From Patescibacteria group bacterium (lineage in GTDB: Bacteria; Patescibacteriota; Patescibacteriia; JBDRGY01), in assembly GCA_043817315.1 (NCBI GenBank), contig JBDRGY010000004.1, forward strand, positions 797 through 64,796: a DNA stretch of 64,000 bases, read 5' to 3'. Numbering within the stretch: position 1 is the first letter of the stretch; the number at the start of each line of letters is the position of its first letter. The translations under genes were made by a program, and so were the position numbers. A model generated the notes under the pieces. The model searched no databases, had not been told where the DNA came from, and worked only from the letters and a program-made list of their open reading frames with translations. This document shows positions 6,559 through 63,564 of this stretch, one piece after another.

Positions 6559-6635
6559 TGGTCGGAGTGGGGGGACTTGAACCCCCGACCTCAGCGTCCC
6601 GAACGCTGCGCGCTAGCCATCTGCGCCACACTCCG
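6559..6635 (-). tRNA. tRNA-Pro (anticodon CGG)
   Basis: Reverse complement: CGGAGTG TG GCGC AGATGGCTA GCGC G CAGCG TTCGGGA CGCTG AGGTC GGGGG TTCAAGT CCCCC CACTCCG A CCA. Cloverleaf with 7-bp acceptor, T-loop TTCAAGT and encoded CCA. Confidence 0.85.
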
Positions 6636-6878
6636 TTAGAAATTTTTGTTATCTAACCACTTTCTACCAACACCAGATTTCAGGAACCTTTCCCTTTTGG
6701 CGGCTTCTTCTTTTGTTTTGAATTTCTCATAATACATTAGCCAGAACGGTCCATTTTGTCTTGTCCATTTATTTGATCCGTTGTTATGTTCATATAGCCG
6801 TATCTTTGGTGACTTCTTTGTATACCCCACATAACGTTTTTTGTTTTTTGTGCTTCTAAGTACGTAGACATTATACAT
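6636..6878 (-). CDS. GIY-YIG domain protein (YhbQ/UPF0213-like small nuclease)
   Basis: VYVLRS...RYVGYT...RLYEHN matches the GIY-YIG core. Directly abuts the tRNA-Pro. Confidence 0.7.
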   Translation of the reverse strand: MYNVYVLRSTKNKKRYVGYTKKSPKIRLYEHNNGSNKWTRQNGPFWLMYYEKFKTKEEAAKRERFLKSGVGRKWLDNKNF

Positions 6879-6991
6879 TGTTCTTTGATTATTCTAGCCC
6901 CCGCCAGAGGCGGGTCCGCCTTCGGCGGAATCTGCGCTACACCCCGATATGACTATTTTATCAAATCTGGTCTTAAAAAAGAAGCCCGGGA

Positions 6992-7224
6992 TTATGATAA
7001 CTCCCGGGCGGTTCTGGAACGACGGAACAAGAGGCACAGAGGAAAGAAGATCGGCCAGCCGACAGTGCAGAAGAATCTAATGTCGTATTCCTCGCTGTGT
7101 GCCCGGTGCTCGGTCTTTCTATCCGGCCAGGGTACGTCGGCAAACAGGTACTGATAAGAGAGTCGCATGCCGATGAACCAGACTGCCAGCAGGGCATAGG
7201 ACACCACCATACCAATTGGCGACA
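6992..7224 (-). CDS. small two-TM membrane protein, GC-rich, strong SD
   Basis: Start placed at the internal ATG (MSPIGMVVSYALLAVWFIG...) preceded by AAGGAGG 5 nt upstream. GC-rich, like the island genes. Confidence 0.45.
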
Positions 7225-7390
7225 TTTTGCCTCCTTTCCGTCTGAGTAAAGGAACGATTAAAAATGTTAACAAAAAGGATTGTTTTTGTCAATAAATTAG
7301 AGAAATTGAGACATATTGACCGAATTAGCTATTTGTAATAGACTTATAATTGATATTTAATAACAATCTGAAATTTCCGTTTTTTTATCT

Positions 7391-33861: not shown

Positions 33862-33976
33862 TGATTTACATCTAAATAGCCGCAGACAATAGGTATCCCC
33901 TAAAAAGGGAATAAACCCTATCTAGGCAATATACCTAACAGGGTCTGTGGTTATCCACAGATTTTTTAATAATATT
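33862..33976 (+). promoter_or_regulatory. rplJ leader with attenuator-like hairpin (putative L10(L12)4 autoregulatory leader)
   Basis: About 115-nt leader ending in CTGTGG-ttat-CCACAG followed by ATTTTTT, 10 nt before the rplJ ATG. Contains TTATCCACA. Confidence 0.45.
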
Positions 33977-34498
33977 ATGGCCAAAACCAAGCAAAGAAAA
34001 AAAGAAGATATTAAGAATCTCGAAGCTAAATTTAAGGAAGCCAAGACTATTGTTTTTGTTGACTATAAAGGTCTGGCAGTCAAAGAAGTAGAAGAGTTAA
34101 GGAAGAATCTTCGCGACAATCAAATAGATTACGTAGTATCCAAAAAGTCCTTAGCCAATATTGCCGCTGAAGAAGCTGGCTATCAGGATGTGGATCTTAA
34201 GAAGTTAGAGGGTCAACTGGCCATAGGATTTGGCCAACAAGAAGTTTTGCCTGCTAAATTGCTTTATCAGTTTGCAGTGCAACACGAGTCGTTAAAGTTA
34301 CTGGCTGGTTTGGTTGATGGCAAAATGGTTGACCAAGAGAGGATTACGGCCTTGGCTCAATTACCAACCAAGGAGGAGCTATTAGCCAAAATGGTCGGCT
34401 CTATCAAGGCTCCAATTTCCGGCTTGCTCAATGTACTACAGGGAAATATGAGGTCTCTGGTTTATGCCCTCAAAGCCATAGCAGAATCAAAAAGTTAA
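33977..34498 (+). CDS. rplJ: 50S ribosomal protein L10
   Basis: MAKTKQRKKEDIKNLEAKFKEAKTIVFVDYKGLAVKEVEELRKNLR. Start at the internal ATG. Confidence 0.9.
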   Translation: MAKTKQRKKEDIKNLEAKFKEAKTIVFVDYKGLAVKEVEELRKNLRDNQIDYVVSKKSLANIAAEEAGYQDVDLKKLEGQLAIGFGQQEVLPAKLLYQFAVQHESLKLLAGLVDGKMVDQERITALAQLPTKEELLAKMVGSIKAPISGLLNVLQGNMRSLVYALKAIAESKS

Positions 34499-34523: not shown

Positions 34524-34964
34524 ATGACAGATGAATCAAAACAGGAGGAAGTTAAAGAAGAGAAAGAAGAAAAAAAGGAAGTTGAAGTTCCCGCCAAGTT
34601 TCAAGACATTGTAACCAAGATTGAAGGTCTTTCCGTGGTTGATTTGGCAGAATTGGTTACCATCCTGGAAGACAAATTTGGTGTCTCGGCTGCTGCTCCG
34701 GTAATGGCCGTGGCCCCTGGTGCCGTAGCCGGACAGGCAGAAGCAGAGGAGAAATCTTCCTTTGACGTTGAGCTAACCGAAGCCGGCGGTAATAAGATTT
34801 CCGTAATTAAAGTGGTCAGGGAAGTAACTCAAAAAGGTTTGAAAGACGCCAAGGACTTAGTTGACGCTGCCCCCAAAGTGATCAAAGAAGGGGCAACCAA
34901 GGAAGAAGCCGAAGATATCAAGAAGAAAGTCGAAGAAGCAGGCGGTCAGGTTACTCTAAAGTAG
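34524..34964 (+). CDS. rplL: 50S ribosomal protein L7/L12
   Basis: [17 protein letters not shown]...[56 protein letters not shown]. Confidence 0.9.
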
Positions 34965-50013: not shown

Positions 50014-50020
50014 AACGGAA

Positions 50021-50275
50021 AGAAAATAGGGGACAAGCGTGTTGATTGCCTGTCCCCTGACGCATAGCCATGTAGAGTGCAGATCGGAACGTCCAGGTGT
50101 TGAGCCTGGAACCTAATCGTTGGCTGCAACGACCTGAGGCTATCAACCTCTTTAAGGACGCCCTAATTTGGCACCTCCCCCTTTCGGGCATTTGCGGCTT
50201 CGCGTCGACATGAACCCGCCTACCAAGAGGCGGGGGGTACCGCGACAGCAGTCATCATCGTCTGCCCTGCTGCCA
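50021..50275 (-). ncRNA. candidate structured ncRNA 1 (about 250 nt, GC-rich, ORF-free), identity unassigned
   Basis: Minus-strand TTGACA(50310-50305)-17-TAATAT(50287-50282) promoter. No ORF over 42 codons in any frame. Multiple GC hairpins including a CCC-GAAA-GGG GNRA hairpin. Ends in GGGGACA...TGTCCCC followed by UAUUUUCU. Confidence 0.35.
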
Positions 50276-50323
50276 ATAATTATATTAGATAAAAGCAATT
50301 AATATGTCAATTGATATATTGTG

Positions 50324-50354
50324 GAAAAAAAACGGGCAAGTTTTTAACTTGCCC
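50324..50354 (-). terminator. rho-independent terminator (after the small acidic ORF)
   Basis: GGGCAAG-ttaaaaa-CTTGCCC followed by GTTTTTTTT on the minus strand. Confidence 0.6.
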
Positions 50355-50497
50355 TAAAGATCGTCTGCCTCTTCTTCAAGCTCGATACTTCTGATGACAG
50401 CAGCCAGGTCATGTTCCTGGCTAACGGGTACAGGCTGATCTTCACCGTCTTCTTCTCTCATCCAATTCTCGGGATTTATCAGTTCGGCATGGTGCAC
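50354..50497 (-). CDS. small acidic protein (48 aa with GTG start, or 35 aa from the internal ATG)
   Basis: AAGGAGG then 5 nt then GTG. ...MREEDGEDQPVPVSQEHDLAAVIRSIELEEEADDL*. Below the ORF-track size cutoff. Confidence 0.3.
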   Translation of the reverse strand: MHHAELINPENWMREEDGEDQPVPVSQEHDLAAVIRSIELEEEADDL

Positions 50498-50820
50498 TTT
50501 ATCCTCCTTGGTTGGAGCTTCTCCACAAAAACCTTAAGTTTGACATTATGACCGAAAGAGTTGGGGACATCTCCAGCCGGAGCCGTCAAAGCCATCCTGG
50601 GGCGCCGACTTACGGTCTGGGGTGCAATGAGCTGTTGCTTCAATATTGCGGAGGTTGAGAGCGGTTGAGAGCAAGTGTTTGTAGATCGTGCCTATTTACC
50701 GATCTCTCAGCCTCCACTTGGAGAAGGAGTATGAAGCGAATTAATTCTATCTGATAATACGAATCTAGTCAAAAAAATTTGACAAAATATAGTTTAGTAA
50801 TAATATGGAAGCAGCTCTTT

Positions 50821-51294
50821 ATGTCGGATAACACTTTAGGCCAAAAGCGAAGGAGGGACCAAGTGTCTGAATCGAGACAAGGCTTACCTCGAGTTCTTGT
50901 CATCTTAGCCAAGAGAAAATTCAACCGGGACTTGGGAAGCGGTGGGACTCCCACATATTGGTTAGTGCACAGTGAAGTGGTGGAGCTCCATACTTGTACT
51001 ACTTGCCGAGGTTTGATCCGGCAGATTCGAAGTGCTCAGCGCCAGTCCCGACCTTTTGGGGCAGTAGTGGTGGAGGCGACTGATAACGAATCCAGCATTC
51101 GCCAGGAAGTGCTGGAAGAAGCTATGGAGCATATACCGGAAGGTACTACTTTGTTGAAAATAGAAAAGGGGCCGGTCTGTATGCAAGTCTGTTCTTTTGA
51201 CGCTGCGGAAGGCGATTTCGCGGTACGGGGCAACAGTACCAGCGGCGACCGCTTAGCCGCAACCATCATGGCCCTTTGCTCATCAGCACAATAG
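50821..51294 (+). CDS. hypothetical GC-rich protein (start uncertain; GTG at 50857 has a perfect AAGGAGG SD)
   Basis: The listed ORF starts at 50779, but a TTGACA-16-TAATAT promoter lies inside it. Internal ATG at 50821 or GTG at 50857. Confidence 0.4.
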   Translation: MSDNTLGQKRRRDQVSESRQGLPRVLVILAKRKFNRDLGSGGTPTYWLVHSEVVELHTCTTCRGLIRQIRSAQRQSRPFGAVVVEATDNESSIRQEVLEEAMEHIPEGTTLLKIEKGPVCMQVCSFDAAEGDFAVRGNSTSGDRLAATIMALCSSAQ

Positions 51295-51299
51295 TCTAT

Positions 51300-51380
51300 A
51301 CCAGGGCGCTTCCTTAAGAAGCGTCTTTTTAAATAAAAAAGACGTATCCTGGAATCTGGATACGTCTTATGAATAAGGTA
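51300..51380. terminator. pair of convergent terminators
   Basis: GCGCTTC-cttaa-GAAGCG followed by TCTTTTT for plus. AGACGTATCC-agattcca-GGATACGTCT followed by TTTTTTATTT on minus. Confidence 0.6.
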
Positions 51381-51387
51381 CATCTCT

Positions 51388-51642
51388 TCAGCTGTCGTTG
51401 CCTTCGGCAGGTGGCTGCCATTCAGTCAGCAGTCGTTCCGGGACGAAAGTCTTGCCGTGAGGTTCGTCTGACTGGGTGTCGAAAACCTCTACCTCTAGCC
51501 AGTTCTGCGGTCTTTCCCCATTTGGCTTGACTTCGCCAGTCAACCTGAGCCTATTACCCTCCGGAGTCAATTGACCCAGCTTGGTGGTGACCGGAGCACG
51601 GACAGTACAAAAGACAACTTCTCCCTTCTCTGGAACTGACAT
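51388..51642 (-). CDS. small GC-rich protein, family member A (LLTEW family)
   Basis: SD AGGAGA. ...LRLTGEVKPNGERPQNWLEVEVFDTQSDEPHGKTFVPERLLTEWQPP. Confidence 0.55.
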   Translation of the reverse strand: MSVPEKGEVVFCTVRAPVTTKLGQLTPEGNRLRLTGEVKPNGERPQNWLEVEVFDTQSDEPHGKTFVPERLLTEWQPPAEGNDS

Positions 51643-51789
51643 AGGTCTCTCCTGGTATGGGCCTGGACCATCACTTCGACCTTAGCCAGCTCATGCTGCC
51701 GTAAGTGATTACATTTTAGTTCTAATTAGGTTTTTGTCAAGAAATGAGCGCATCGCGTCGGAGACGCGATGCGCTCTGGAAAACTCCTC

Positions 51790-52038
51790 CTAGATTCCCT
51801 TGAACGGCCAATGCCACTCGGTCAGCAGAACCTGCGGAAAAACTGCCCTACCCAACACCTTATCGTCCAGGAAGTTTCTCCTGACCTCTGCTTCAACTCC
51901 GGCAGCTGGCCTGCCTTGCCAGACAACCTGTTCTTCATGACCCGTTAAGATCAGGTAGTGATCGTCTGGGGTTACTTCTCCAAAGTCAGTGTCAAACGGT
52001 TCTCTGACTTTGTGTCTTTTGGCATCGATCAGGCCCAT
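51790..52038 (-). CDS. small GC-rich protein, family member B
   Basis: Start at the internal ATG with SD AGGAGG (MGLIDAKRHK...). ...LILTGHEEQVVWQGRPAAGVEAEVRRNF...RAVFPQVLLTEWHWP. Confidence 0.55.
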   Translation of the reverse strand: MGLIDAKRHKVREPFDTDFGEVTPDDHYLILTGHEEQVVWQGRPAAGVEAEVRRNFLDDKVLGRAVFPQVLLTEWHWPFKGI

Positions 52039-52173
52039 CCCTATCCTCCTGTCGGCGGTTTTTGCCGGCCCAACTACCTGATTACCGAAATGTATTAATA
52101 ATACTATTCTATATTTTCTATTTGTCAAGAAAAAGAGTATAATAATTGTGTAGGATTATTAATCAAAATAGCA

Positions 52174-52761
52174 ATGGAACAAGAAAAAAACGATTATCAA
52201 CAACCAAGTCAATTTGGCAACCAAGAACCGGCCAAAAAACATTTTGGCTTGAAAAAAGCAGTTCTGGTCATCAGCATTGTTATTGTCTTGAATCTGTTTA
52301 TCGGCTATGGCATAACTACTTTTTGGCATACACCCCAATATGAGGACTACTGCACCGAGGAGATTACCTCTAAGACATATTCTGACCAGGAATCCTGTGA
52401 AGCAGCTGGAGGTAAATGGATAATAAGCGCAGAAGTGGGTGTCCCGGAAGAGAAAAGCAGAATAAGTAATTGGTGTGAAATGGATTACCAGTGCCGGCAG
52501 GAGTATCAAGCAGCTTCCGATGTTTATGGCCGTAACTTCTTTGTCGTTGAAATAATAGCTGGAGTAATTCTGATAGTAGTCGGCTTGTTTGCCATCAAGG
52601 CCCAGTCGGTTTCTTTGGGGCTTTCTTTCGGTGGTCTGCTGGCCTTGATTGTCGGTACCATGCGGCACTGGTCAGGGATGCAGGAATATCTGAGATTTAT
52701 CATTCTAGGTCTGGCCCTGATTATCCTGATCTGGGTGGGAGTCAAGAAGTTCAAAGATTAA
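52174..52761 (+). CDS. membrane protein (host-like AT-rich composition)
   Basis: N-terminal TM, a Cys-containing ectodomain, C-terminal TMs. Confidence 0.5.
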   Translation: MEQEKNDYQQPSQFGNQEPAKKHFGLKKAVLVISIVIVLNLFIGYGITTFWHTPQYEDYCTEEITSKTYSDQESCEAAGGKWIISAEVGVPEEKSRISNWCEMDYQCRQEYQAASDVYGRNFFVVEIIAGVILIVVGLFAIKAQSVSLGLSFGGLLALIVGTMRHWSGMQEYLRFIILGLALIILIWVGVKKFKD

Positions 52762-52773
52762 TCACAATATTTT

Positions 52774-53538
52774 ATGCGAGTAGACGATCAAGACAAGTCT
52801 AAAAAAGAAGAAAAACTAAAGGAAGAGTCAAAACAACCAGAACCTGCTAGAGGAGACAAGCCCAAAAAGAAGGGCCACCTGTTACGCAACTGTTTTATCA
52901 TTGTGCTCATTGTCTTCATTTTATTGATCTTGGCGATTGTTTCCCTGTTCTTCTTTAAGGTCCCGGTTATTTCTTCAATCGTTGGATTAAACAGTCAGAA
53001 GGATTTGGGGATTGAAGCCACTGAGGAAGCTAAAGACAGTGCCCAGCAAAAAGTGCCCTGGCAATTTACGGCTGAGATGTCGGAATATACCTTGACGGGG
53101 AATAGAACTTTTTCCGGGAAGATGGACTTAGATGTAGAACTGACATCAGAAGAGGTTACTTCCTACCTTGGACTAATGGGATTTCCGGATGAAGTCATTG
53201 AAAATGTCCAAGTTAAAATGGTTGAAGGCGGAATGGAAATTTCTTCTCAGATAAAAGAGCCGGTTAACTTACCAGTATATTTTAAAGTAGATATAGATAA
53301 GGAGTCAGCCAAAAGTGTCAGCCTAGACATTCAGAAAGCTAAAGTGGGATGGTTCTCTGTACCGCAAAAGTACATAGATCAGGCCGAAGAGTTTTTCCAA
53401 GACACAGTCAATGGGAGGTTAACGGAGGTGGAGGCAGTAAGCATCGAAACCCTTGAGTATCATGACGGCTATTCCGTTTTTAAAGGCACAGTGCCTGAGA
53501 AAGTGGAACCAGCTTATGGTAAATGGCTTGATATCTAA
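52774..53538 (+). CDS. membrane-anchored protein with Lys/Glu-rich N-terminal tail
   Basis: Single TM and an extracytoplasmic domain. Confidence 0.5.
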   Translation: MRVDDQDKSKKEEKLKEESKQPEPARGDKPKKKGHLLRNCFIIVLIVFILLILAIVSLFFFKVPVISSIVGLNSQKDLGIEATEEAKDSAQQKVPWQFTAEMSEYTLTGNRTFSGKMDLDVELTSEEVTSYLGLMGFPDEVIENVQVKMVEGGMEISSQIKEPVNLPVYFKVDIDKESAKSVSLDIQKAKVGWFSVPQKYIDQAEEFFQDTVNGRLTEVEAVSIETLEYHDGYSVFKGTVPEKVEPAYGKWLDI

Positions 53539-53607
53539 GCTAGTATAAATCAAACAGAACCCGGGTCAATAGGCTTGGGTTCTTATATATAAAAAAACGG
53601 ACGACTA

Positions 53608-53892
53608 TCAAGTCGTCCGGATAAGCCAATCGGGCAGATCTTCGGTCATGATGTGTCTGATCGGTACCACGACGGGACCGTTGTAGGAAGCCTTGCCGCT
53701 CTCCAGCTCCACCTCAATACCGCATTCGAAACGCCAGTGTCCTCGAGGATCGTGGAAGATGGCAATGCCCTCTTCTCCGGTAACCCGGCCGGAAGCACCA
53801 TGAGGGATTTTGACCGTCTTACCATGATGACCCAACACTTCCACTTCACCTACTTCTACCTGTAAGCCTTTCAATTGACTGATTTTCAACAT
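53608..53892 (-). CDS. small GC-rich protein, family member C
   Basis: Start at the internal ATG with SD GGGAGGA (MLKISQLKG...). ...RVTGEEGIAIFHDPRGHWRFECGIEVELESGKASYNGPVVVPIRHIMTEDLPDW. Confidence 0.5.
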   Translation of the reverse strand: MLKISQLKGLQVEVGEVEVLGHHGKTVKIPHGASGRVTGEEGIAIFHDPRGHWRFECGIEVELESGKASYNGPVVVPIRHIMTEDLPDWLIRTT

Positions 53893-54058
53893 GATCCTAT
53901 CCTCCCAAGGAAAGGTGGGGGTTCTTGATGCCCGATTGCTAAGGTACATTTGCCTTATCTTACAGTTTCTCTTTTATTTAGTCAAACCCTGCACCAGACG
54001 GTGCAGGGTAAATTAAAAAGGACGGCGGATAGTTTGCCGTCCAATGAACATGGGCCCT

Positions 54059-54280
54059 CTAGCCCTCGACTGGGTCCAGATGAGTGGCTGGCACCAAGAC
54101 ATGGTCACCTTCGACTACCACTTCGATCAGCAGCCCCTGATCTTGTGAGGGTAGTTTGGCCTCGTGAGCCAGTCTGGCCTCAGTACCTTGGAGCAAAACC
54201 TTGGGCAAGGTGCCGACTCTGACATCGGCCCTCTGGTTGACTATAACTCTGGTTCCTGCCATCAGCTTGCTATTGGCCAT
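54059..54280 (-). CDS. small GC-rich protein, family member D (shorter)
   Basis: MANSKLMAGTRVIV...GLLIEVVVEGDHVLVPATHLDP. Confidence 0.45.
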   Translation of the reverse strand: MANSKLMAGTRVIVNQRADVRVGTLPKVLLQGTEARLAHEAKLPSQDQGLLIEVVVEGDHVLVPATHLDPVEG

Positions 54281-54436
54281 GATGTTCCCCCCTGGTTGTC
54301 GCTCTCCCGTTCTTAAGACCCGAAACAGTTTATTACAATATTACTTATTGATTTTTTTGTCAAGCCCTGCATCAGACGATGCAGAGCAAGTAGATAAAAA
54401 AAGATGGCAGATGCTCTTGCCATCTTGGGCCGTGGG

Positions 54437-54709
54437 CTAGCGGCTCTCATCAACCAGTCCCAGCATGACATCAGTGATGTCGATGACTCCTGGTTCCCGG
54501 TCGGGCCCGATCAAGCAGACCATGCCTCGGTGCACCTGGCCAAACTCATCGGTGAACTCCCGGTCCTCTCCCAGGTAGCGAAACTGGGTGCCGCCCGGGA
54601 ATCGGTAGTTGCGAGGCGAATCATCTTTCTTGATCGGAGCCTCTTTCTGTCCCGGGGCCGGAGACTTTAGCTCCAGCTACTTACCATTTAGTTCTGCCCT
54701 GGTGACCAT
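54437..54709 (-). pseudogene. family member E interrupted by an in-frame TAG after codon 10
   Basis: SD GGGGG then 7 nt then ATG. MVTRAELNGK*LELKSP...RFPGGTQFRYLGEDREFTDEFGQVHRGMVCLIGPDREPGVIDITDVMLGLVDESR*. Stop at 54677-54679. Not in the ORF track because it has no long ATG-initiated frame. Confidence 0.4.
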
Positions 54710-54845
54710 TTGGTTACCCCCTTTTCGGGCCTCCTACCTCGTAGATTTGGCGCCCTGGAATGAACATTTAAACTTAAGGGATATTAAAGAATTTGTCAAG
54801 GCCTTAGCCGTAGTCAAAGCTCTTTTGTCAATGGGCGGCTTTTGC

Positions 54846-57193: not shown

Positions 57194-58939
57194 TTGTATA
57201 GTATTACTATGAACAAATTATTAATTCTCTCGGTAATCATAATTTTTGGAGGATTTTTTGTTACACCGGTTTCGGCTCAGGAAATTGAAGAAATCAAAAG
57301 CTTTGATATCAGAGTTGTTCTAAATGAAGACAGCACCTTCACCATTACTGAAACTATCCTATATGATTTCGGGGAGGATGCTTATAATAAACACGGTATC
57401 ATCAGGGAGATGCCCTATAAGTATCAGAGGAAAGGAGCCAATTATAACGTCAGAATAACTCTATTGTCGATTACCGATTCTGCCGGCAATCCTTACAATT
57501 ATAGTACCAGTCGCTCCGGCGGTAACCTTTACCTAAAGATTGGTGATGCCGATGTTACGGTTACCGGCAAGAGGGCATACCAAATTGAATACAAACTAGC
57601 CAGAGCTATAAACTATTTTGCCGATCACGACGAATTTTACTGGAATGTAACTGGTACTGGCTGGCCGGTAGATATCGAGCAGACAACGGCAACTATCACT
57701 ATGCCTCAGTCCGTTTTGATGGAAGATTTGCAGTTTGCCTGCTATACCGGTTATTACGGTGCCACTGAAGGTTACTGTGATTACGAGATGATCGATGAGC
57801 AACATTACGTTTATTACACCAAAGAGGCTTTGGTGGCGGGCGAGGGCTTGTCGATCGTTCTGGGTTTGCCCAAGGGGATTATACAGCAGCCTACTCTGGC
57901 TCAGAATCTATTGTGGTTCTTTCAGGATAACTGGTATATTTTTCTGCCCTTACTCGTCCTGATTATCCTGATCTATGTTTGGTGGACTAGGGGCCGGGAC
58001 CCAGAAACAAAATTGAGTGAAACCATAATTCCTTATTACGCACCTCCTAATGATATGCCCCCAGGACTTTTGGGGGTAGTCTATGACGAAAAGGCTGATC
58101 TTAGAGATATCAGCTCCTCAATTATTGATTTTGCAGTCAGAGGCTATATTAAAATAAAGAAAATTGGCAAGAAAGACTCTGACTATGAATTTATTAAAAT
58201 AAAAAATATTGACGATACTTTTGAACCGTACGAAAGAGATGTCTTCAAAGCTATCTTTAAGAATACTAATTCCAGAAAATTATCCAGCCTCAAATACAAA
58301 TTTTATAAAGAATTGCCTGCCATCAAAAAAACCCTTTATCAATCGGTGGTAGATCAAGGTTTTTTTCCGATCAATCCGGATAAAGTACGAGGATCCTATG
58401 TTGGTTGGGGAATAGTATTCATCATAGTCGGATTTATCCTGATGTTTGTCGGTATCTCTGTTTATGCCGGCATAGCAGTGATGGCTAGTGGAGTCCTGGT
58501 AACCTTCTTTGCCAAAGCTATGCCCAGGAAAACCAAGTTTGGAACTAATACCCACGCCAAAATATTGGGATTGAAGATGTATATGTCAGTGGCTGAAAAA
58601 GACCGGATAAAATTTCACAATGCTCCAGCCAAAAGCCCGGAGGTTTTTGAGAAACTGTTGCCCTATGCCATGGTTCTGGGGGTGGAGAAAGAATGGGCTG
58701 AAGAATTTAAGGATATGTATAAAACGCCGCCTGATTGGTACCAGGGAGATACCATCCGGGGATTTAATTCTCTGTACCTCATAAACTCATTGAGCTCTAT
58801 GAATCGGTCAGTCGGTAGTACTATTACTTCAAGGCCTCCAAGTCGCAGTAGTGGTAGTGGGGGAGGATTCTCGGGTTTTTCCGGTGGTGGTGGTTTTTCT
58901 GGCGGTGGTTTTGGAGGCGGAGGCGGAGGCAGCTGGTAA
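57194..58939 (+). CDS. DUF2207-family membrane protein with Gly-rich C-terminal tail
   Basis: Signal peptide, large ectodomain, 3 TM, and a ...SGSGGGFSGFSGGGGFSGGGFGGGGGGSW tail typical of DUF2207. Confidence 0.65.
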   Translation: MYSITMNKLLILSVIIIFGGFFVTPVSAQEIEEIKSFDIRVVLNEDSTFTITETILYDFGEDAYNKHGIIREMPYKYQRKGANYNVRITLLSITDSAGNPYNYSTSRSGGNLYLKIGDADVTVTGKRAYQIEYKLARAINYFADHDEFYWNVTGTGWPVDIEQTTATITMPQSVLMEDLQFACYTGYYGATEGYCDYEMIDEQHYVYYTKEALVAGEGLSIVLGLPKGIIQQPTLAQNLLWFFQDNWYIFLPLLVLIILIYVWWTRGRDPETKLSETIIPYYAPPNDMPPGLLGVVYDEKADLRDISSSIIDFAVRGYIKIKKIGKKDSDYEFIKIKNIDDTFEPYERDVFKAIFKNTNSRKLSSLKYKFYKELPAIKKTLYQSVVDQGFFPINPDKVRGSYVGWGIVFIIVGFILMFVGISVYAGIAVMASGVLVTFFAKAMPRKTKFGTNTHAKILGLKMYMSVAEKDRIKFHNAPAKSPEVFEKLLPYAMVLGVEKEWAEEFKDMYKTPPDWYQGDTIRGFNSLYLINSLSSMNRSVGSTITSRPPSRSSGSGGGFSGFSGGGGFSGGGFGGGGGGSW

Positions 58940-58969
58940 TATTTGAAATTAATTTGGAAATACAATTTT

Positions 58970-59479
58970 ATGGCGAAAATTTTAATGATTATCGCGCCGG
59001 AAAGTTTTGATGCAAAGGAATTTAAAATTTGTAAGCAAACTATCGAAAAAGCCGGACATCAGGTAGACGTAGCTGCTCGCTACAAGGGAGAAGCTAAAAG
59101 TAATAAAGAAGACACCTATCAGGTAACAATTGGCATCAGGGAGGTGAAAATGGAAGAGTATCAGGGCATTCTGTTTATCGGCGGATCAGGGGCGGCCATC
59201 TATTTAAATGACGACGAAGCACATATATTAGTGCGGATCGCCAGCGATATCGGTCAAGCGATAGGGGCTATCAACATTGCCCCCTCTATTCTGGCCAATG
59301 CCGGAATACTCAGCGGCCGCAAAGCTTCTGTGTTTCCCTCTGAAGAGGAGAACATGAGGGCCAAGGGGGCAGAGCTGATGTCATCTGACGTTACAGTAGA
59401 CGGGAAAATCGTGACAGCTTCAGGCGCCTATGCGGCGGAGGAATTTGCCCGGCATTTTGTTGAGGCCTTGAACAAATAA
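58970..59479 (+). CDS. DJ-1/PfpI-family protein (nucleophile Cys replaced)
   Basis: KILMIIAPE...GILFIGGSG...AINIAPSIL, where Cys is expected in AICHGP. Confidence 0.55.
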   Translation: MAKILMIIAPESFDAKEFKICKQTIEKAGHQVDVAARYKGEAKSNKEDTYQVTIGIREVKMEEYQGILFIGGSGAAIYLNDDEAHILVRIASDIGQAIGAINIAPSILANAGILSGRKASVFPSEEENMRAKGAELMSSDVTVDGKIVTASGAYAAEEFARHFVEALNK

Positions 59480-59481
59480 CT

Positions 59482-59787
59482 ATGTCTAAAATATTAATAA
59501 CCACTAATTTTATTGTTCAGCCAGACAAGGTTAATCAGTTTAAAGATTTCCTGCAGTAATTGGTAAAGGCTGGCCAAGAGCTCAAGGGGGTTGAAAAAAG
59601 TTATATTTGTCGCCATCAAGAGTAGTCTAATATATTGTCCACCTGGACCATAATCGATACGCCGGCCAACGCCGAGAATCTCAAAAGAACTTTCCGAGAC
59701 GATATAGACTTTGCTCAAAAATATTTAGCGGCAATGGAGCTTCTGGAAGCTAAACCGAAATTAGCTACTTACCAAATCGTGGGATAA
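59482..59787 (+). pseudogene. ABM (antibiotic-biosynthesis-monooxygenase-like) domain gene with two in-frame stops (TAA 59557-59559, TAG 59623-59625)
   Basis: MSKILITTNFIVQPDKVNQFKDFLQ*LVKAGQELKGVEKSYICRHQE*SNILSTWTIIDTPANAENLKRTFRDDIDFAQKYLAAMELLEAKPKLATYQIVG*. Confidence 0.5.
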
Positions 59788-60097
59788 AAAAACGCCCCCA
59801 CATCCTCAAGGGCGCTTGTCAGTCAGCTGAAGGGTTACCTTCAATGGCCCACTGTCTAGGAGCGGGCGCCTGGCCAGGCGACAGGAATTCAGAAACCGAT
59901 CTCATGCCTTCTTACGCCCGGAAGACACGAATGCAGGGACGTCTGCATGCCGCAGGGGGTGGCGGACGGTGTCCTAGGTTCACTGCCAGGTCAGACTAGC
60001 TGATTCCTTTTCGAACAGCTGACTTATGTAGCGCTTATGGAGGAATAGGGAGCGTCAAAGCTCCTTGATAATGAACAAAATCCGAGTAAGCGGATAA
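59786..60097 (-). ncRNA. candidate structured ncRNA 2 (about 300 nt, GC-rich, ORF-free), identity unassigned
   Basis: Minus-strand TTGACG(60131-60126)-15-TATAAT(60110-60105) promoter. Stops in all frames. Many GC hairpins. Ends in ACGCCC...GGGCGT followed by UUUUUUU (plus 59785-59814). Confidence 0.35.
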
Positions 60098-60180
60098 ATA
60101 AGATATTATACCCTATTATTATCTACGTCAAGTAATCATTACCCTTTTTAAGGAAATTTGTTATAATTAATTAAGCTATT

Positions 60181-60696
60181 ATGGAGGACCAAAAGAAAAA
60201 TACCGCTTTTTTGTACCTTTTTGGTGTAATTATCGTTTGTTTTATTGCTCTGCGAATTTTTCAGGTTACAGTGTCAGACGAAGAAGAGAAAACTAACCAG
60301 GCAGTAGCAAACTCTAATGTGGCTAATGCCAGCATTGAAGAAAACTTTCAACTACTCCTGGAGATCAGAGCTCCTTTTTCCAATACATCAATCCAAATTG
60401 ATAATGAAGGCCAGATTACCTATCAAAAAATTGTATTTGGTTTGCAAGAAGATAGTCAGCAAGAAAAAACTATCAATCAAGAAAAACTTATAAATCTGCA
60501 GAATCTAATATCAAGTAGCCAGTTCTTTTCCATGAATAGTGCCTATCGGTCCCAGGAAATCGTGGAAGACTCCACTTTCTCTATTTTGAGTATTAGCTGG
60601 GACGAGGATGATCACTCTGTCTTATGTGAGACTAATTGTCCGGATGGTTTTAATAGTATTCAAACGCAAGTCGAATCACTTTGGAATAATATTTAA
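60181..60696 (+). CDS. hypothetical membrane-anchored protein
   Basis: N-terminal TM (FLYLFGVIIVCFIALRIF). Confidence 0.45.
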   Translation: MEDQKKNTAFLYLFGVIIVCFIALRIFQVTVSDEEEKTNQAVANSNVANASIEENFQLLLEIRAPFSNTSIQIDNEGQITYQKIVFGLQEDSQQEKTINQEKLINLQNLISSSQFFSMNSAYRSQEIVEDSTFSILSISWDEDDHSVLCETNCPDGFNSIQTQVESLWNNI

Positions 60697-60706
60697 TTAT
60701 ATCAAT

Positions 60707-61654
60707 ATGAAAGCAATTCGTTATCTTATCTTCCTGGCAATTTTCTTAGTCGTCGTTTACGGAATTCTAACCGTGACTTATTTCGGTTTATATTCCGATT
60801 CCAAATATGCCAAGGGCCAGGATTTAGAAGCAGCCCAGGATGGTCAATTTGTCAATTTGTCGACCGGAGAAATTTTTTACCGTGAGGCTGGACTGGGTAA
60901 AAAAGTAATCTTTCTTCATGGCTTTGGCGATTCTTCAGCCAGCTTCGAGAAGATAATGGAAGAAATGAGCAGCCAGTACCGGGTCTATGCTTTAGATTTT
61001 CCGGGTTTTGGTTTTTCCAGCAAAGAAAAAACAAACGAAATGAATCTGGAAGAAAAGGTTCAGACAGTCTTGGACTTTATGGATTTTAAGAACACGGATA
61101 AAGTGTATTTAGTCGGTCACTCCATGGGAGGAGCAGTGGCTACTCAACTGGCTGTTGATTATCCAGAAAAAGTAGAGAAACTGGCTTTAATCTCGACCGC
61201 TGGATACGGGGATGATCATGGAGCCTATTCGACACTAAAATGGATTCCTCCTCCGCTGGATAAGCTTTTTGTCCGCTGGTTCTTGTTTAACAATAATACA
61301 GTAAAAAAGAATCTGGATGCAGCTTTTTATGATGATGATTTGGCCTCAATAGAGTTAGTAAACCAGTATCTGGAACCCACTCAAACCAAAGGGGCGGATT
61401 GGAGCTACTTGAAAAATATCAAACAAGGTATTGCTCCGGATCTTAAAGATGAGTTTGCCAAGGTTACACAGCCGACACTATTAATCTGGGGCAGGGATGA
61501 CGAAATGATATCCAGTGACACCATGGCCTCCTTAAGGGGAATAATGCCGAATGCAACAGGTTATTTCTTAGAATTTACCGGACATCTGGTCCACCAGGAA
61601 AGCCCTGAGGGAGTAGCTTCACTGCTGGAAAATTTCTTTAGTCAAATTCTATAA
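60707..61654 (+). CDS. membrane-anchored alpha/beta hydrolase
   Basis: GHSMGGAV nucleophile elbow. Start at the internal ATG. Confidence 0.6.
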   Translation: MKAIRYLIFLAIFLVVVYGILTVTYFGLYSDSKYAKGQDLEAAQDGQFVNLSTGEIFYREAGLGKKVIFLHGFGDSSASFEKIMEEMSSQYRVYALDFPGFGFSSKEKTNEMNLEEKVQTVLDFMDFKNTDKVYLVGHSMGGAVATQLAVDYPEKVEKLALISTAGYGDDHGAYSTLKWIPPPLDKLFVRWFLFNNNTVKKNLDAAFYDDDLASIELVNQYLEPTQTKGADWSYLKNIKQGIAPDLKDEFAKVTQPTLLIWGRDDEMISSDTMASLRGIMPNATGYFLEFTGHLVHQESPEGVASLLENFFSQIL

Positions 61655-61657
61655 ACG

Positions 61658-62173
61658 ATGAATTTCTTTGAGCTGATAAAAAAACGGCATTCAATTCGTC
61701 AATACAAAAAACGGGAAGTACAAAAAGATAATATCAAAAAGATATTGGAAGCGGTTAAGACTGCTCCCTCTGCTGGCAATGTTCAGGCATACCATATCTT
61801 TGTGGTTAAGCAACAAGCCAATAAAGATCAGTTGGCCCTGGCCGCTTTCGGCCAGAATTTTATTGCTCAAGCGGGAGTGGTTTTTGTCTTTATGGCGGAC
61901 CCCTCTCGTTCCTCCTCGCGGTACGGCTCCAGGGGGGCGGAATTATACGCCACCCAAGATGCCACCATTGCCTGTAGTTATGCTCAATTAGCTGCTCGGG
62001 ATCTGGGATTGGGAGCTTGTTGGGTCGGGGCCTTTGACGAAGAAAGAGTCAGGCTGATTTTAAAAGCTCCCAACGAGATGTTGCCGGTGGCCATCCTGCC
62101 GGTTGGCTATTCAGCAGTTCCCGGAAGTAGATGCCAAAGAAGGCCCCTCAAAGATATTTTCACTGATAGTTAA
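61658..62173 (+). CDS. nitroreductase-family protein
   Basis: MNFFELIKKRHSIRQYKK...AGNVQAYHIFVV. Confidence 0.8.
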   Translation: MNFFELIKKRHSIRQYKKREVQKDNIKKILEAVKTAPSAGNVQAYHIFVVKQQANKDQLALAAFGQNFIAQAGVVFVFMADPSRSSSRYGSRGAELYATQDATIACSYAQLAARDLGLGACWVGAFDEERVRLILKAPNEMLPVAILPVGYSAVPGSRCQRRPLKDIFTDS

Positions 62174-62244
62174 TAAAGTGCCAGGTCTGACGAGTATCTA
62201 GCGCTTTTTTTATTGGTTTATTCGGGTTATAATTAAACTACTTT

Positions 62245-63564
62245 ATGCAGCAAATCGCCTTATCCATTATCAAAAAACTACAAGCCGCCGGCTTTGTGGC
62301 TTATCTGGCCGGTGGTTTTGTGCGTGATAAATTGATGAAGAAGCAGCCGGATGATTTTGACATTGCTACTTCAGCCAAACCCAGTCAAATAGAAAAGTTA
62401 ATGCCCAAGACCATTTCCGTGGGTAAAGAGTTTGGTGTCATTATTGCTATTGTCAAAGGTCACAGTTTTGAAATAGCCACTTTCCGTTCCGATGCCGGTT
62501 ATTCAGATGGGCGTCGGCCCGATGCTGTTTATTACGCTAAGCCAGCCAATGATGCCCAGCGTAGAGATTTTACCATCAACGGCATGTTTTATGATCCGAC
62601 CAAAAAGAAAGTGATTGATTTTGTCGGGGGACAAAAGGATTTAAAGAAGAAGATAGTACGTTTTATTGGTGATCCCAACAAAAGGATCAAAGAAGATCAC
62701 TTACGACTCCTACGTGCCATCAGATTCAAAAACGTTCTAGGGTTTAAATATCATCCTAAGGCTTGGCTAGCAGTTAAGAAACATGCCAAGCTAATCAGAA
62801 CTGTTTCCGGGGAAAGGATTAAACAGGAGCTAGACAAGATTTTAGCATCTCCCAATCGAGCCAAGGCCATTTTGGATTTACAAAAGTCCGGAATCTTAGC
62901 ACAAATATTGCCGGAAGTAATTAAAATGATAGGAGTAGCTCAACCTTATCAATTTCACGGTAGGGCAGACGTTTTTAAGCATACTATTAAGTGTGTGGCT
63001 CAATTACCGGAAGAAGTTTCCCGGGAACTGGCCTGGGCGGCCCTATTACACGATTTGGGTAAGCCGGCAACGTTTAGGCGGGCTGATCGTATCCGTTTTA
63101 CCAGACATGTTCAGAAGTCAGTGGAAATTTCCAAGAAGATTCTAAAGAGACTTCATTTCTCCCGGAAAGAATCAGAGAAAATCTTATGGTTGGTCAAGTA
63201 TCATCATCTGTTACAGAGTTATGACGACATGAAATTATCAACCAGAAGGAAATGGTTACTGGATCCTTTTTTTCCTGATTTATTGGAATTGGCCAAGGCT
63301 GATACCGAAGCTACTCCGGCCATTCGTTGGTTTAAGGAGTATAAAAAAATAAAAGCAGCTATGGGGGCGGCCCATAAGAAATTCCCCAAAATTCCTAAAT
63401 TGATTTCTGGTAAAGAAGTGATGAAATGGTGTAAAATAGAGGAAGGACCGATGGTTGGAAAGATACTGGCTAAAGTTAAAGAGGCCCAGTTGGCTGGCAA
63501 GCTAAAGACTAAAACCGAGGCCAGAAACTATGTTAAAAAAATTAAAGTATCAAACATCAGGTGA
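62245..63564 (+). CDS. cca: CCA-adding tRNA nucleotidyltransferase (class II Pol-beta NTase + HD domain)
   Basis: YLAGGFVRDKLMKKQPDDFDIAT head motif. C-terminal HD domain (LHDLGKP). Confidence 0.85.
   Translation: MQQIALSIIKKLQAAGFVAYLAGGFVRDKLMKKQPDDFDIATSAKPSQIEKLMPKTISVGKEFGVIIAIVKGHSFEIATFRSDAGYSDGRRPDAVYYAKPANDAQRRDFTINGMFYDPTKKKVIDFVGGQKDLKKKIVRFIGDPNKRIKEDHLRLLRAIRFKNVLGFKYHPKAWLAVKKHAKLIRTVSGERIKQELDKILASPNRAKAILDLQKSGILAQILPEVIKMIGVAQPYQFHGRADVFKHTIKCVAQLPEEVSRELAWAALLHDLGKPATFRRADRIRFTRHVQKSVEISKKILKRLHFSRKESEKILWLVKYHHLLQSYDDMKLSTRRKWLLDPFFPDLLELAKADTEATPAIRWFKEYKKIKAAMGAAHKKFPKIPKLISGKEVMKWCKIEEGPMVGKILAKVKEAQLAGKLKTKTEARNYVKKIKVSNIR

What the first reader, a model, noticed from the sequence alone, without database searches (positions are those of the whole stretch)
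59786..60131. Second candidate about 300-nt structured ncRNA (unassigned)
The architecture matches candidate 1. A minus-strand TTGACG-15-TATAAT promoter precedes a GC-rich 300-nt body with stops in all frames and many perfect hairpins, for example CGCCUGG/CCAGGCG and AUGCAG-acgucc-CUGCAU. An intrinsic terminator (GCGCCC...GGGCGU followed by UUUUUUU) closes it. It lies between an ABM pseudogene and an AT-rich promoter region. The two candidates do not obviously resemble each other, so they could be two different housekeeping RNAs or novel RNAs.
Basis: seen in the sequence. Interest (0 to 1): 0.6.

Follow-up and report, generated by a model that had tools for sequence, protein, structure and literature searches.

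The report
Orphan GC-rich structured RNA candidate
A roughly 310-base, GC-rich, strongly folding, non-coding unit with its own promoter and terminator sits in a fast-changing gene slot of an uncultured Patescibacteria genome; it matches no known RNA family and has no detectable relatives, so it is at best a species-specific small RNA of unknown role and not a missing housekeeping RNA.

Summary
On the minus strand, a sigma-70-type promoter (TTGACG-17-TAATAT, 60131-60103) is followed by a 44-nt AU-rich leader. Then comes a 266-nt core of 57% GC (60056-59791) whose ends pair in a ~27-bp interrupted helix, and a strong intrinsic terminator (59817-59786). This core has the lowest folding energy of all 8,496 270-nt windows scanned in the 64 kb. 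Its dinucleotide-shuffle z is about -4.3. After correcting for composition against native sequence it is only in the top 1.6%. It shows no codon periodicity, no ORF with a ribosome-binding site and no protein homologue. It matches no Rfam family even at E<=10, while a diverged L10 leader elsewhere in the window is detected. Five relatives at ~60% protein identity keep the flanking genes. In this slot they carry a metallo-beta-lactamase-fold gene, an intact ABM gene, or nothing. Only a same-species contig has the element. Pattern and translated searches of GTDB genomes, JGI metagenomes, IMG/VR, phages and plasmids found nothing. Verdict: a credible but orphan, lineage-specific non-coding RNA gene candidate. 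The housekeeping-RNA idea is not supported. Function cannot be tested by covariation. A captured, functionless GC-rich fragment remains a serious rival.

The parts
60103..60131 (-). Sigma-70-type promoter: TTGACG (60131-60126), 17-nt spacer, TAATAT (60108-60103). The overlapping TATAAT (60110-60105) would have only a 15-nt spacer. Predicted start near 60095-60098.
   Evidence: Sequence. Promoter scan 9/12. TTGAC-N18-TAATAT occurs only here and at candidate 1, 0.02 expected, though the pattern was chosen post hoc. The relaxed motif occurs 28 times vs 7.0 expected.
60057..60097 (-). AU-rich 5' leader with a small hairpin, AUCCG-CUUACU-CGGAU (60095-60080), followed by UUUUGUU and an AAGGAG motif. 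No usable start codon follows.
   Evidence: Terminator-like scan hit. Pair probability 0.89. Read from the sequence.
60017..60056 (-). 5' strand of the closing helix P1 (RNA nt 45-84): GACGCUCCC / UCCUC / GCGCU / AGUCAGCU, separated by 3-5-nt internal loops.
   Evidence: MFE and partition function give helix probabilities 0.81-0.98. P1 alone scores -40 kcal/mol.
59868..59996 (-). Long central arm (RNA nt 105-233) ending in a three-hairpin junction. It includes the C-rich loop CACCCCCU (59961-59954), the hairpin AUGCAG/CUGCAU (59948-59931) and the 10-bp hairpin UCGUGUCUUC/GAAGGCAUGA (59930-59902).
   Evidence: Probabilities are 0.95 and 0.89 for the two strong hairpins and 0.4-0.8 for the rest of the arm.
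59829..59867 (-). Two high-confidence hairpins at the main junction: GCCCGCU-CCUAGAC-AGUGGGC (59867-59847) and GAAGG-UAAC-CCUUC (59842-59829).
   Evidence: Pair probability 0.99 for each.
59791..59828 (-). 3' strand of closing helix P1 (RNA nt 273-310). It overlaps the terminator stem.
59786..59817 (-). Intrinsic terminator: AAGCGCCCUU...GGGGGCGUUU stem (-13.9 kcal/mol) plus a U7 tract (59792-59786). The stem is mutually exclusive with the outer part of P1. The U tract overlaps the TAA stop of the ABM pseudogene on the other strand.
   Evidence: Terminator scan, 11 pairs. Forcing the local hairpin costs 9.6 kcal/mol relative to the MFE fold.
59482..59787 (+). Flanking ABM-domain pseudogene with in-frame TAA (59557-59559) and TAG (59623-59625). 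Context only, not part of the RNA.
   Evidence: Gapless tblastn alignment to the intact 101-aa ORF of L007, E=3e-15. Period-3 signal is retained.
60159..60183 (+). Conserved extended -10 (TGTTATAAT, 60159-60167) and start codon (60181) of the divergent DUF6438-like gene. This marks the right-hand limit of the lineage-specific insert (about 59788-60158).
   Evidence: Comparison with L007, L001, L002 and L006. Pfam DUF6438 match.

Best explanation
This is an independently transcribed, lineage-specific (orphan) non-coding RNA gene of about 305-310 nt in a Patescibacteria (CPR) MAG.

Shown: a credible sigma-70-type promoter and a strong intrinsic terminator bracket a 57%-GC body. The body is non-coding and folds unusually stably, with its 5' and 3' ends paired in a ~27-bp interrupted helix that encloses a multi-branched core.

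Inferred: the transcript is made and is stable, because paired ends plus a terminator hairpin protect against exonucleases. Because ~60% of its bases are paired and it lacks a long single-stranded seed, it more likely acts as a folded scaffold or protein-binding RNA than as a classical base-pairing sRNA. The long terminal helix might also serve as an RNase III processing stalk. The exposed C-rich apical loop (CACCCCCU) is the best candidate for any base-pairing contact.

The unit was acquired, or arose, in a hypervariable slot between the DJ-1 and DUF6438 genes. Its promoter sits where the minus-strand MBL-gene promoter sits in relatives. Its biological function is unknown and it is probably accessory, not essential.
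For: The promoter and terminator are correctly placed and oriented at the exact edges of the GC-rich body.

Fold: MFE -117.4 kcal/mol, z = -4.28, with 0 of 100 shuffles as stable. The plus strand gives only z = -1.84. The core gives z = -4.44, while 12 GC-matched coding and leader controls range from +1.2 to -3.2. The core has the lowest raw MFE of 8,496 windows.

The structure scan ranks a true RNA, the L10 leader, first and the tRNA region second. The method is therefore informative.

Non-coding: period-3 power is 0.8 (p = 0.55), against 1.5-8.2 for coding controls including the neighbouring pseudogene. No Pfam hit on any stop-free piece. No protein homologue for the 75-codon frame. No similarity to the MBL gene that occupies the slot in relatives.

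The element is present and identical in an independent assembly of a different strain, L003, which has 93 mismatches in the flanks. It is not an assembly artefact.

A second unit with the same promoter form and similar fold statistics lies at ~50020-50310.

Long GC-rich intergenic regions in AT-rich genomes are the established enrichment criterion for structured ncRNAs (PMC6429828, PMC11109978).
Against: There is no homologue anywhere, so there is no covariation and no evidence of selection.

The strain comparison is uninformative. It shows 0 differences in the RNA, but the whole 3.5-kb flank differs by only ~0.4%.

Against native sequence, corrected for composition, the fold is only z = -2.5 (top 1.6%, 25th locus). 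One coding control reached a shuffle z of -3.2.

Relatives lack the element, so it is dispensable for the lineage.

The promoter may simply be inherited from the lost MBL gene. Transcription has not been shown.
Confidence: 0.5

Rival explanations
1. Functionless relic. A fragment of foreign or shuffled GC-rich DNA was captured in a decaying, hypervariable slot. It lies behind the ancestral promoter of the lost MBL-fold gene and in front of a hairpin plus T-run. It may be transcribed but does nothing.
For: The slot differs in every relative: an MBL gene, an ABM gene, or nothing. The neighbouring ABM gene is itself a pseudogene. The TTGAC -35 element lies at the position and orientation of the MBL promoter in L001, L002 and L006. 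No homologues exist. The composition-corrected fold signal is moderate.
Against: Random captured DNA would not be expected to have the lowest folding energy in 64 kb with ends that pair over ~27 bp. It would not be expected to start and end exactly at a promoter and a strong terminator, or to lack any coding periodicity if it came from a gene. A second unit of the same design exists in the window.
Confidence: 0.3
2. A highly diverged housekeeping RNA (RNase P RNA, 6S RNA, SRP RNA or tmRNA) that Rfam thresholds miss, as is known for some CPR RNase P RNAs.
For: In CPR genomes, 10 of 35 RNase P RNAs fell below default thresholds (PMC8172020). In this window the L10 leader also scores below its gathering cut-off. 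The size (~300 nt) and paired termini resemble those of stable RNAs.
Against: No hit to any of these families even at E<=10 on the isolated 326 nt. The diverged CPR RNase P RNAs in PMC8172020 were recovered once thresholds were lowered. ARAGORN finds no tmRNA. The universal P4 motifs (GGAAAGUCC, ACAGAA) are absent from the sequence as read directly. An essential RNA would not be missing from the syntenic slot of all relatives and from 185,579 GTDB species representatives in the pattern searches.
Confidence: 0.04
3. A DNA-level or mobile element: a MITE-like insertion whose terminal inverted repeats are the two strands of 'P1', or a cluster of protein-binding palindromes.
For: The GC-rich segment is bounded by an imperfect ~38-nt inverted repeat. 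It is an insertion relative to L007. It holds 10 hexamer palindromes in 270 nt against a mean of 3.8, placing it in the top 1% of windows.
Against: It is single-copy in 64 kb and has no related copy in any collection. No clear target-site duplication is visible. The strand asymmetry of folding (z -4.3 vs -1.8) and the promoter/terminator orientation point to an RNA rather than a DNA function.
Confidence: 0.08
4. A small protein gene: the 28-aa minus-strand ORF or the 51-aa plus-strand ORF (59844-59999). Alternatively, a decayed copy of one of the GC-rich small genes found nearby.
For: Neighbouring GC-rich minus-strand units with the same promoter style do encode small orphan proteins. A 75-codon stop-free frame exists on the plus strand.
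Against: No period-3 signal. No Shine-Dalgarno sequence at a workable distance from any AUG (read). No Pfam or database homologue. No tblastx similarity to the other small genes. The plus-strand ORF lacks a promoter and terminator in its orientation.
Confidence: 0.05

Closest known systems
Orphan, independently transcribed bacterial sRNA genes / candidate structured ncRNAs found as long GC-rich intergenic regions in AT-rich genomes (GC-IGR approach; PMC6429828, PMC8632094, PMC11109978)
   Same: Own promoter and Rho-independent terminator. Intergenic and non-coding. GC content far above the surrounding sequence. Strong predicted secondary structure.
   Different: Published candidates are accepted on the basis of multiple homologues with covariation. 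This one has no homologue beyond one near-identical strain. At ~310 nt and ~60% paired, it is also larger and more compact than typical base-pairing sRNAs.
Stable housekeeping RNAs with paired termini (6S RNA RF00013; RNase P RNA RF00010/RF00011; tmRNA; SRP RNA)
   Same: Length class of 200-400 nt. 5' and 3' ends paired in a long helix. High GC relative to the genome. Strong promoter.
   Different: No covariance-model match even at E<=10. No family-specific motifs. Not conserved in relatives. The branched core is unlike the 6S rod-and-bubble.
Candidate 1 in the same window (~50020-50310, minus strand)
   Same: Same promoter form (TTGAC-N18-TAATAT). Similar length (~280 nt), GC content (~57%), terminator and shuffle z (-4.5). 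No Rfam family. Absent after the homologous neighbour gene in a relative (L010).
   Different: No sequence similarity and a different predicted architecture. Its composition-corrected fold signal is stronger (z -3.9 vs -2.5).
rRNA-type processing stalks (long 5'/3' flanking helices cut by RNase III)
   Same: A ~27-bp interrupted terminal helix encloses the folded body.
   Different: This is an analogy from anatomy only. No processing data exist, and no RNase III site can be predicted from sequence.

Membership tests
RNase P RNA (bacterial type A/B) | Match to the covariance model, including the P4 core (CR-I GGAAAGUCC, CR-V ACAGAA) | tested here: not met
   No hit at the gathering score or at E<=10 on 901-nt and 326-nt extracts. 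The motifs are absent when the sequence is read directly. Diverged CPR forms are normally recovered when thresholds are lowered (PMC8172020).
tmRNA | tRNA-like domain with T-arm and CCA end, plus a tag reading frame | tested here: not met
   ARAGORN finds only tRNA-Pro in the window. No Rfam tmRNA hit.
6S RNA / SRP RNA | Covariance-model match. Rod with a central bubble (6S) or the helix-8 GNRA/symmetric-loop motif (SRP). | tested here: not met
   No hits at E<=10. The predicted fold is multi-branched.
Any housekeeping RNA | Conservation across related genomes | tested here: not met
   Absent from the syntenic slot in L001, L002, L004/L005, L006 and L007. No relative in genome, metagenome or viral collections. 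Whole genomes of the relatives could not be searched.
Independent sRNA / ncRNA gene (generic) | Own promoter, and an intrinsic terminator at the 3' end on the same strand | tested here: met
Independent sRNA / ncRNA gene (generic) | No protein-coding capacity | tested here: met
   No ORF of 34 aa or more on the transcribed strand. No period-3 signal. No Pfam or protein homologues.
Independent sRNA / ncRNA gene (generic) | Structure supported by covariation | not testable with these tools
   The only other copy (L003) is identical over the RNA.
Independent sRNA / ncRNA gene (generic) | Detected transcript | not testable with these tools
   No transcriptome data are available.
Riboswitch / cis-regulatory leader | A downstream gene on the same strand under its control | tested here: not met
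   A strong terminator is followed only by the oppositely oriented ABM pseudogene and the DJ-1 gene. No Rfam riboswitch hit.
MITE / repeat element | Multiple copies; terminal inverted repeats with a target-site duplication | tested here: not met
   Single copy in the window. No copies in the collections. An inverted repeat is present but no duplication is evident. Only 64 kb of the genome could be checked.
Protein-coding gene or recent pseudogene (including the MBL-fold gene of relatives) | Similarity to a protein, or residual codon periodicity | tested here: not met
   tblastn with the MBL proteins finds nothing. tblastx against the window finds nothing. Period-3 is absent, whereas the adjacent ABM pseudogene keeps it.
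Type I toxin-antitoxin sRNA | An adjacent small hydrophobic toxin ORF with complementarity | tested here: not met
   No such ORF. The 10-nt complementarity to the DUF6438 start codon ranks 39th of 72 in the duplex comparison.

The most novel reading that the evidence does not exclude
Candidates 2 and 1 are functional members of a lineage-specific pool of GC-rich accessory transcription units in this Patescibacteria clade. The pool is on the minus strand, uses TTGACA-type promoters and is otherwise made up of orphan small-protein genes. Under this reading they represent new classes of compact, ~300-nt structured RNAs (RNP scaffold, ribozyme or regulator of the GC-rich small genes) that are invisible to comparative methods because the lineage is so sparsely sampled.
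Probability: 0.12. Interest if true: 0.6.

Novelty: new member of a known kind. Interest (0 to 1): 0.3.

Why it matters
If real, this would be one of very few candidate regulatory or structural RNAs described for CPR/Patescibacteria. These organisms have tiny genomes and an essentially uncharted RNA biology. It would also show that highly structured RNA genes can appear in a hypervariable slot within a single species-level lineage. As it stands, the finding answers no open question. Its practical value is negative: it should not be annotated as rnpB, ssrS, ffs or ssrA. It does illustrate a wider pattern in this genome of GC-rich mini transcription units that deserves transcriptomic follow-up.

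Tried and rejected
1. Rfam at gathering score on the whole window. Rfam in E-value mode on 901 nt, on 326 nt and on the whole window. Nothing relevant was found.

2. ARAGORN: no tmRNA.

3. Remnant of the MBL-fold gene that fills the slot in relatives: tblastn negative.

4. Paralogue or pseudogene of the nearby GC-rich small genes: tblastx negative, and there is no period-3 signal.

5. Protein-coding remnant: Pfam on eight stop-free pieces and a 5.8-billion-protein search with the 75-codon frame were both negative.

6. Homologue hunting:
   - blastn against phages and plasmids.
   - Exact 19-22-mers in IMG/VR. The two hits for one GC-rich 19-mer were chance matches in 62-66% GC contigs.
   - A 'pseudo-protein' trick: six wobble-tolerant 24-nt seeds with tblastn confirmation, run against GTDB genomes, JGI metagenomes and IMG/VR. 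No relative was found.
   - Structure-aware patterns with loops fixed and stems free, run against genomes, viruses and metagenomes. The two metagenome hits were chance.

7. Synteny route: five relatives were fetched and none carries the element.

8. Selection from strain comparison: uninformative, because the whole 3.5-kb flank is nearly identical.

9. Antisense targeting of the divergent DUF6438 start codon (10-nt match): not better than other genes in a duplex ranking.

10. C-rich loop against G-rich ribosome-binding sites of two GC-rich small genes: 7-nt matches only, kept as a weak lead.

11. Pairing between candidates 1 and 2: not above shuffles.

12. CRISPR or tandem-repeat context: none.

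13. Alternative genetic code as the explanation for the in-frame stops nearby: all three stop codons are used as stops.

Full report
**What is there.**

- TTGACG lies at 60131-60126. TATAAT follows after 15 nt (60110-60105), and the overlapping TAATAT follows after the canonical 17 nt (60108-60103). The consensus scan reports the 17-nt version (9/12).
- A 44-nt AU-rich leader follows. It carries a small hairpin (AUCCG/CGGAU, 60095-60080).
- Next comes a 266-nt body of 57% GC (60056-59791) in a window averaging 42%.
- The unit ends in an 11-pair stem plus U7 (59817-59786).
- The U tract overlaps the stop codon of a plus-strand ABM-domain pseudogene.

**Is the promoter credible?** The relaxed motif TTGACN-N16-18-TANNNT occurs 28 times in the window against 7.0 expected from shuffles. 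Most sites lie just upstream of genes. This organism therefore uses such promoters, and roughly three quarters of the matches should be real. The exact form TTGAC-N18-TAATAT occurs only twice (0.02 expected), here and at the other unassigned unit near 50282-50310. That pattern was chosen after seeing both sites.

**Is the fold more than chance?**

- The 315-nt minus-strand RNA has an MFE of -117.4 kcal/mol and z = -4.28 against dinucleotide shuffles, with 0 of 100 shuffles as stable. The plus strand gives only z = -1.84.
- In my own re-computation the core alone gives z = -4.44. Twelve controls (GC-rich small genes, a leader, other GC-rich coding stretches) range from +1.2 to -3.2.
- I folded every 270-nt window of the 64 kb on both strands (step 15, n = 8,496). 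The core at 59790-60059 (minus) has the lowest raw energy of all (-111.4). The other unassigned unit is second (-110.8).
- After regressing energy on base composition, the element is only z = -2.5, rank 140 of 8,496 and the 25th independent locus. Candidate 1 is 4th at z = -3.9.
- The scan is informative. Its top locus is a ribosomal-protein L10 leader (RF00557, 33.5 bits, E = 4e-4) upstream of rplJ-rplL. Its second locus is the tRNA-Pro region.
- The fold signal is therefore real but moderate once composition is taken from native sequence.

**Anatomy**.

- RNA nt 45-84 pair with nt 273-310 in four helical segments totalling 27 bp (probabilities 0.81-0.98). They are separated by 3x3, 5x4 and 5x4 internal loops. 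The GC-rich segment is thus exactly the domain closed by this helix.
- Inside lie a weak hairpin, a long arm (nt 105-233) that ends in three hairpins, and two very confident hairpins (nt 234-254 and 259-272, P = 0.99).
It cannot form as written.
- The local terminator hairpin (-13.9 kcal/mol) competes with the outer part of the closing helix. Enforcing it costs 9.6 kcal/mol. The released RNA should therefore refold with paired ends.

**It is not coding.**

- The longest stop-free run on the transcribed strand is 33 codons. The plus strand has a 75-codon run with a 51-aa ATG ORF.
- Period-3 power is 0.8 (p = 0.55) for the core. It is 1.5-8.2 for coding controls, including the adjacent ABM pseudogene at 2.2.
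- Pfam finds nothing in eight stop-free pieces.
- The 75-codon frame has no homologue among 5.8 billion proteins.
- tblastx against the rest of the window is negative.

**It is not a known RNA.**

- Rfam gives only tRNA-Pro at gathering thresholds.
- In E-value mode up to 10, on 901 nt and on the isolated 326 nt, only trivial short matches appear.
- ARAGORN finds no tmRNA.
- This matters because CPR RNase P RNAs are known to fall below default cut-offs. They were, however, recovered once thresholds were lowered (Lui et al. 2021, PMC8172020).
- The same permissive mode here does recover a sub-threshold L10 leader.
- The P4 core motifs of RNase P are absent on direct reading.

**Context and relatives.**

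- The DJ-1 protein next door is identical to NCBI MFH1598029.1 from a 'Patescibacteria group bacterium' MAG.
- A DJ-1 search gave one same-species contig and several relatives at 60-63% identity.
- The local gene order is asparaginase, 197-aa ORF, DUF2207, DJ-1, [slot], DUF6438-like, alpha/beta hydrolase, nitroreductase, CCA-adding enzyme. It is conserved on the longest relative contig (L001), and the shorter contigs show parts of it.
- The slot varies between relatives:
  - A 202-aa metallo-beta-lactamase-fold gene on the minus strand in L001, L002 and L006.
  - Nothing (20 bp) in L004 and L005.
  - An intact 101-aa ABM gene followed by 32 bp in L007.
- The window's ABM sequence aligns without gaps to the L007 protein but carries in-frame TAA and TAG codons.
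- The extended -10 (TGTTATAAT) of the DUF6438 gene is conserved between L007 and the window. About 370 bp (59788-60158) are therefore specific to the window's lineage.
- The element has no similarity to the MBL gene. However, its -35 element lies at the same place and orientation as the TTGACA promoter of that gene in the relatives. The body may have replaced the MBL coding region behind an older promoter.
- The same-species contig L003 differs at 93 of 4,785 positions. It carries the element unchanged, so an assembly artefact is excluded.
- The differences are concentrated right of 61447. The 3.5 kb around the element differs by only ~0.4%, so the identity says nothing about selection.

**Search for relatives elsewhere.**

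- blastn against phage and plasmid collections was negative.
- Exact 19-22-mers in IMG/VR gave nothing or chance hits in 62-66% GC contigs.
- To gain sensitivity I submitted the 75-codon stop-free frame as a pseudo-protein. This yields six wobble-tolerant 24-nt seeds plus tblastn confirmation. It found no relative in one genome per 185,579 GTDB species, in 241 million JGI metagenome records, or in IMG/VR. The window's own genome is evidently not in those collections.
- Structure-aware patterns (loops fixed, stems free) gave nothing in genomes or viruses. They gave two chance hits in metagenomes.
- The element is therefore an orphan as far as these tools can see.
- Homologues below roughly 85-90% identity, or located elsewhere in the genomes of the 60% relatives, would have been missed.

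**Wider pattern.**

- The window holds a set of GC-rich (48-60%) mini transcription units on the minus strand. Each has a TTGACA-type promoter, while the core genes are almost all on the plus strand.
- Most of these units encode orphan small proteins with clear codon periodicity and no Pfam or PHROG family. One of the proteins has a homologue in relative L001.
- Two units are non-coding and strongly folded: this finding, and the one at ~50020-50310 (z = -4.5, no Rfam hit).
- The two share no sequence and no above-chance complementarity.
- The neighbour gene of candidate 1 is followed directly by another gene in a 71%-identical relative. Candidate 1 is therefore also not syntenically conserved.

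**Mechanism.**

- Shown: a promoter-body-terminator unit, non-coding, with an unusually stable fold and paired termini.
- Inferred: it is transcribed into a stable ~305-310-nt RNA. Given ~60% paired bases and no long single-stranded stretch, it is more likely a folded scaffold or protein-binding RNA than a classical seed-pairing sRNA. Alternatively, the ~27-bp terminal helix could be an RNase III processing stalk.
- Base-pairing leads were checked and are weak:
  - A 10-nt complement to the start codon of the divergent DUF6438 gene ranks 39th of 72 in the duplex comparison.
  - The C-rich loop CACCCCCU has only 7-nt matches to G-rich ribosome-binding sites of two GC-rich small genes.
- I put 0.5 on 'genuine lineage-specific ncRNA gene'. 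I put 0.3 on 'captured, functionless GC-rich fragment behind an inherited promoter'. Small weights go to a DNA-level or mobile element (0.08), a small protein gene (0.05) and a diverged housekeeping RNA (0.04).

**Verdict.**

- The interpretation as an unassigned structured ncRNA is reasonable but unproven.
- The housekeeping alternative is not supported.
- Novelty is that of one more orphan sRNA candidate, although in a phylum where almost none are described.
- Interest is modest (0.3). It would rise only if transcription and homologues with covariation were found.

Noticed in passing
It has a TTGACA-17-TAATAT promoter (50310-50282), a ~260-nt body of 57% GC, and a terminator GGGGACAGGC...GCUUGUCCCC plus a U-run. 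Shuffle z is -4.5, and it is the 4th strongest composition-corrected fold in the window. There is no Rfam hit even at E<=10. It contains an AUGAUGA/C-box-like motif. A 71%-identical relative (L010) has another gene directly after the neighbouring 170-aa gene instead.
   Followed up: partly
window 33862-33978, plus strand: A ribosomal protein L10 leader (RF00557) scores 33.5 bits, below the gathering score of 44 (E = 4e-4). It follows a TTGACA-16-TATAAT promoter and lies upstream of rplJ (33947-34498) and rplL (34524-34964). It is the strongest fold outlier in the window. Standard Rfam annotation would miss it.
   Followed up: yes
window 59482-59787, plus strand: An ABM-domain pseudogene with two in-frame stops (TAA 59557-59559, TAG 59623-59625) and no frameshift. 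It aligns without gaps to an intact 101-aa ORF in relative L007. Both stop codons are unchanged in the same-species contig L003, whose only difference in this gene is at 59550.
   Followed up: yes
window 59480-60180 versus L001:6510-7339, L002:2310-3098, L006:757-1517, L004:651-671, L007:561-903: The slot between the DJ-1 and DUF6438 genes is hypervariable among lineages at ~60% identity. It holds a minus-strand metallo-beta-lactamase-fold gene (faint Anti-Pycsar Apyc1 Pfam hits in two of them), nothing, an ABM gene, or an ABM pseudogene plus the RNA-like unit.
   Followed up: yes
window 50340-54800 and 6990-7292, minus strand: A series of GC-rich (48-60%) mini transcription units, each with a TTGACA-type promoter. 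They encode orphan small proteins of 47, 84, 112, 113, 73, ~90 and ~78 aa with no Pfam or PHROG family. The 84- and 112-aa proteins are paralogues sharing an LLTEW motif, and the 112-aa one has a homologue in relative L001. The core genes around them are on the plus strand at ~40% GC.
   Followed up: partly
window 54437-54709, minus strand: A GC-rich small gene with strong codon periodicity. It starts at an ATG with a G-rich ribosome-binding site but has an in-frame TAG at 54679-54677 after 10 codons, followed by 79 further codons. This could be a nonsense pseudogene, readthrough or a sequencing error. The window uses TAA, TAG and TGA as stops (41/20/11).
   Followed up: partly
window 59790-60059: Ten hexamer palindromes in 270 nt: AGCGCT, CAGCTG (twice), TTCGAA, CCTAGG, GCATGC, GACGTC, GAATTC, TGGCCA and GGCGCC. 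The window mean is 3.8, so this region is in the top 1% of windows (shuffle p about 0.016). The significance is unknown.
   Followed up: partly
window 57947-62731 versus L003: Divergence from the same-species contig is mosaic: about 0.4% over 57947-61446 and about 6% over 61447-62731. This suggests a recombination tract boundary inside the alpha/beta hydrolase gene.
   Followed up: no
window 60030-60044 and 60174-60188: AGCGCTTATGGAGGA inside the element resembles AGCTATTATGGAGGA at the start codon of the divergent DUF6438 gene (13 of 15). RNA nt 57-66 (UCCUCCAUAA) is therefore complementary to that start region. It did not stand out in the duplex ranking of 72 start regions (39th).
   Followed up: yes
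window 6640-6880, minus strand, just upstream of tRNA-Pro (6559-6635): A small ORF (MYNVYVLRSTKNKKRYVGYT...) that looks like a GIY-YIG nuclease-domain protein by eye. It is preceded by GC-rich hairpins at ~6900-6945. It was not tested against any library.
   Followed up: no
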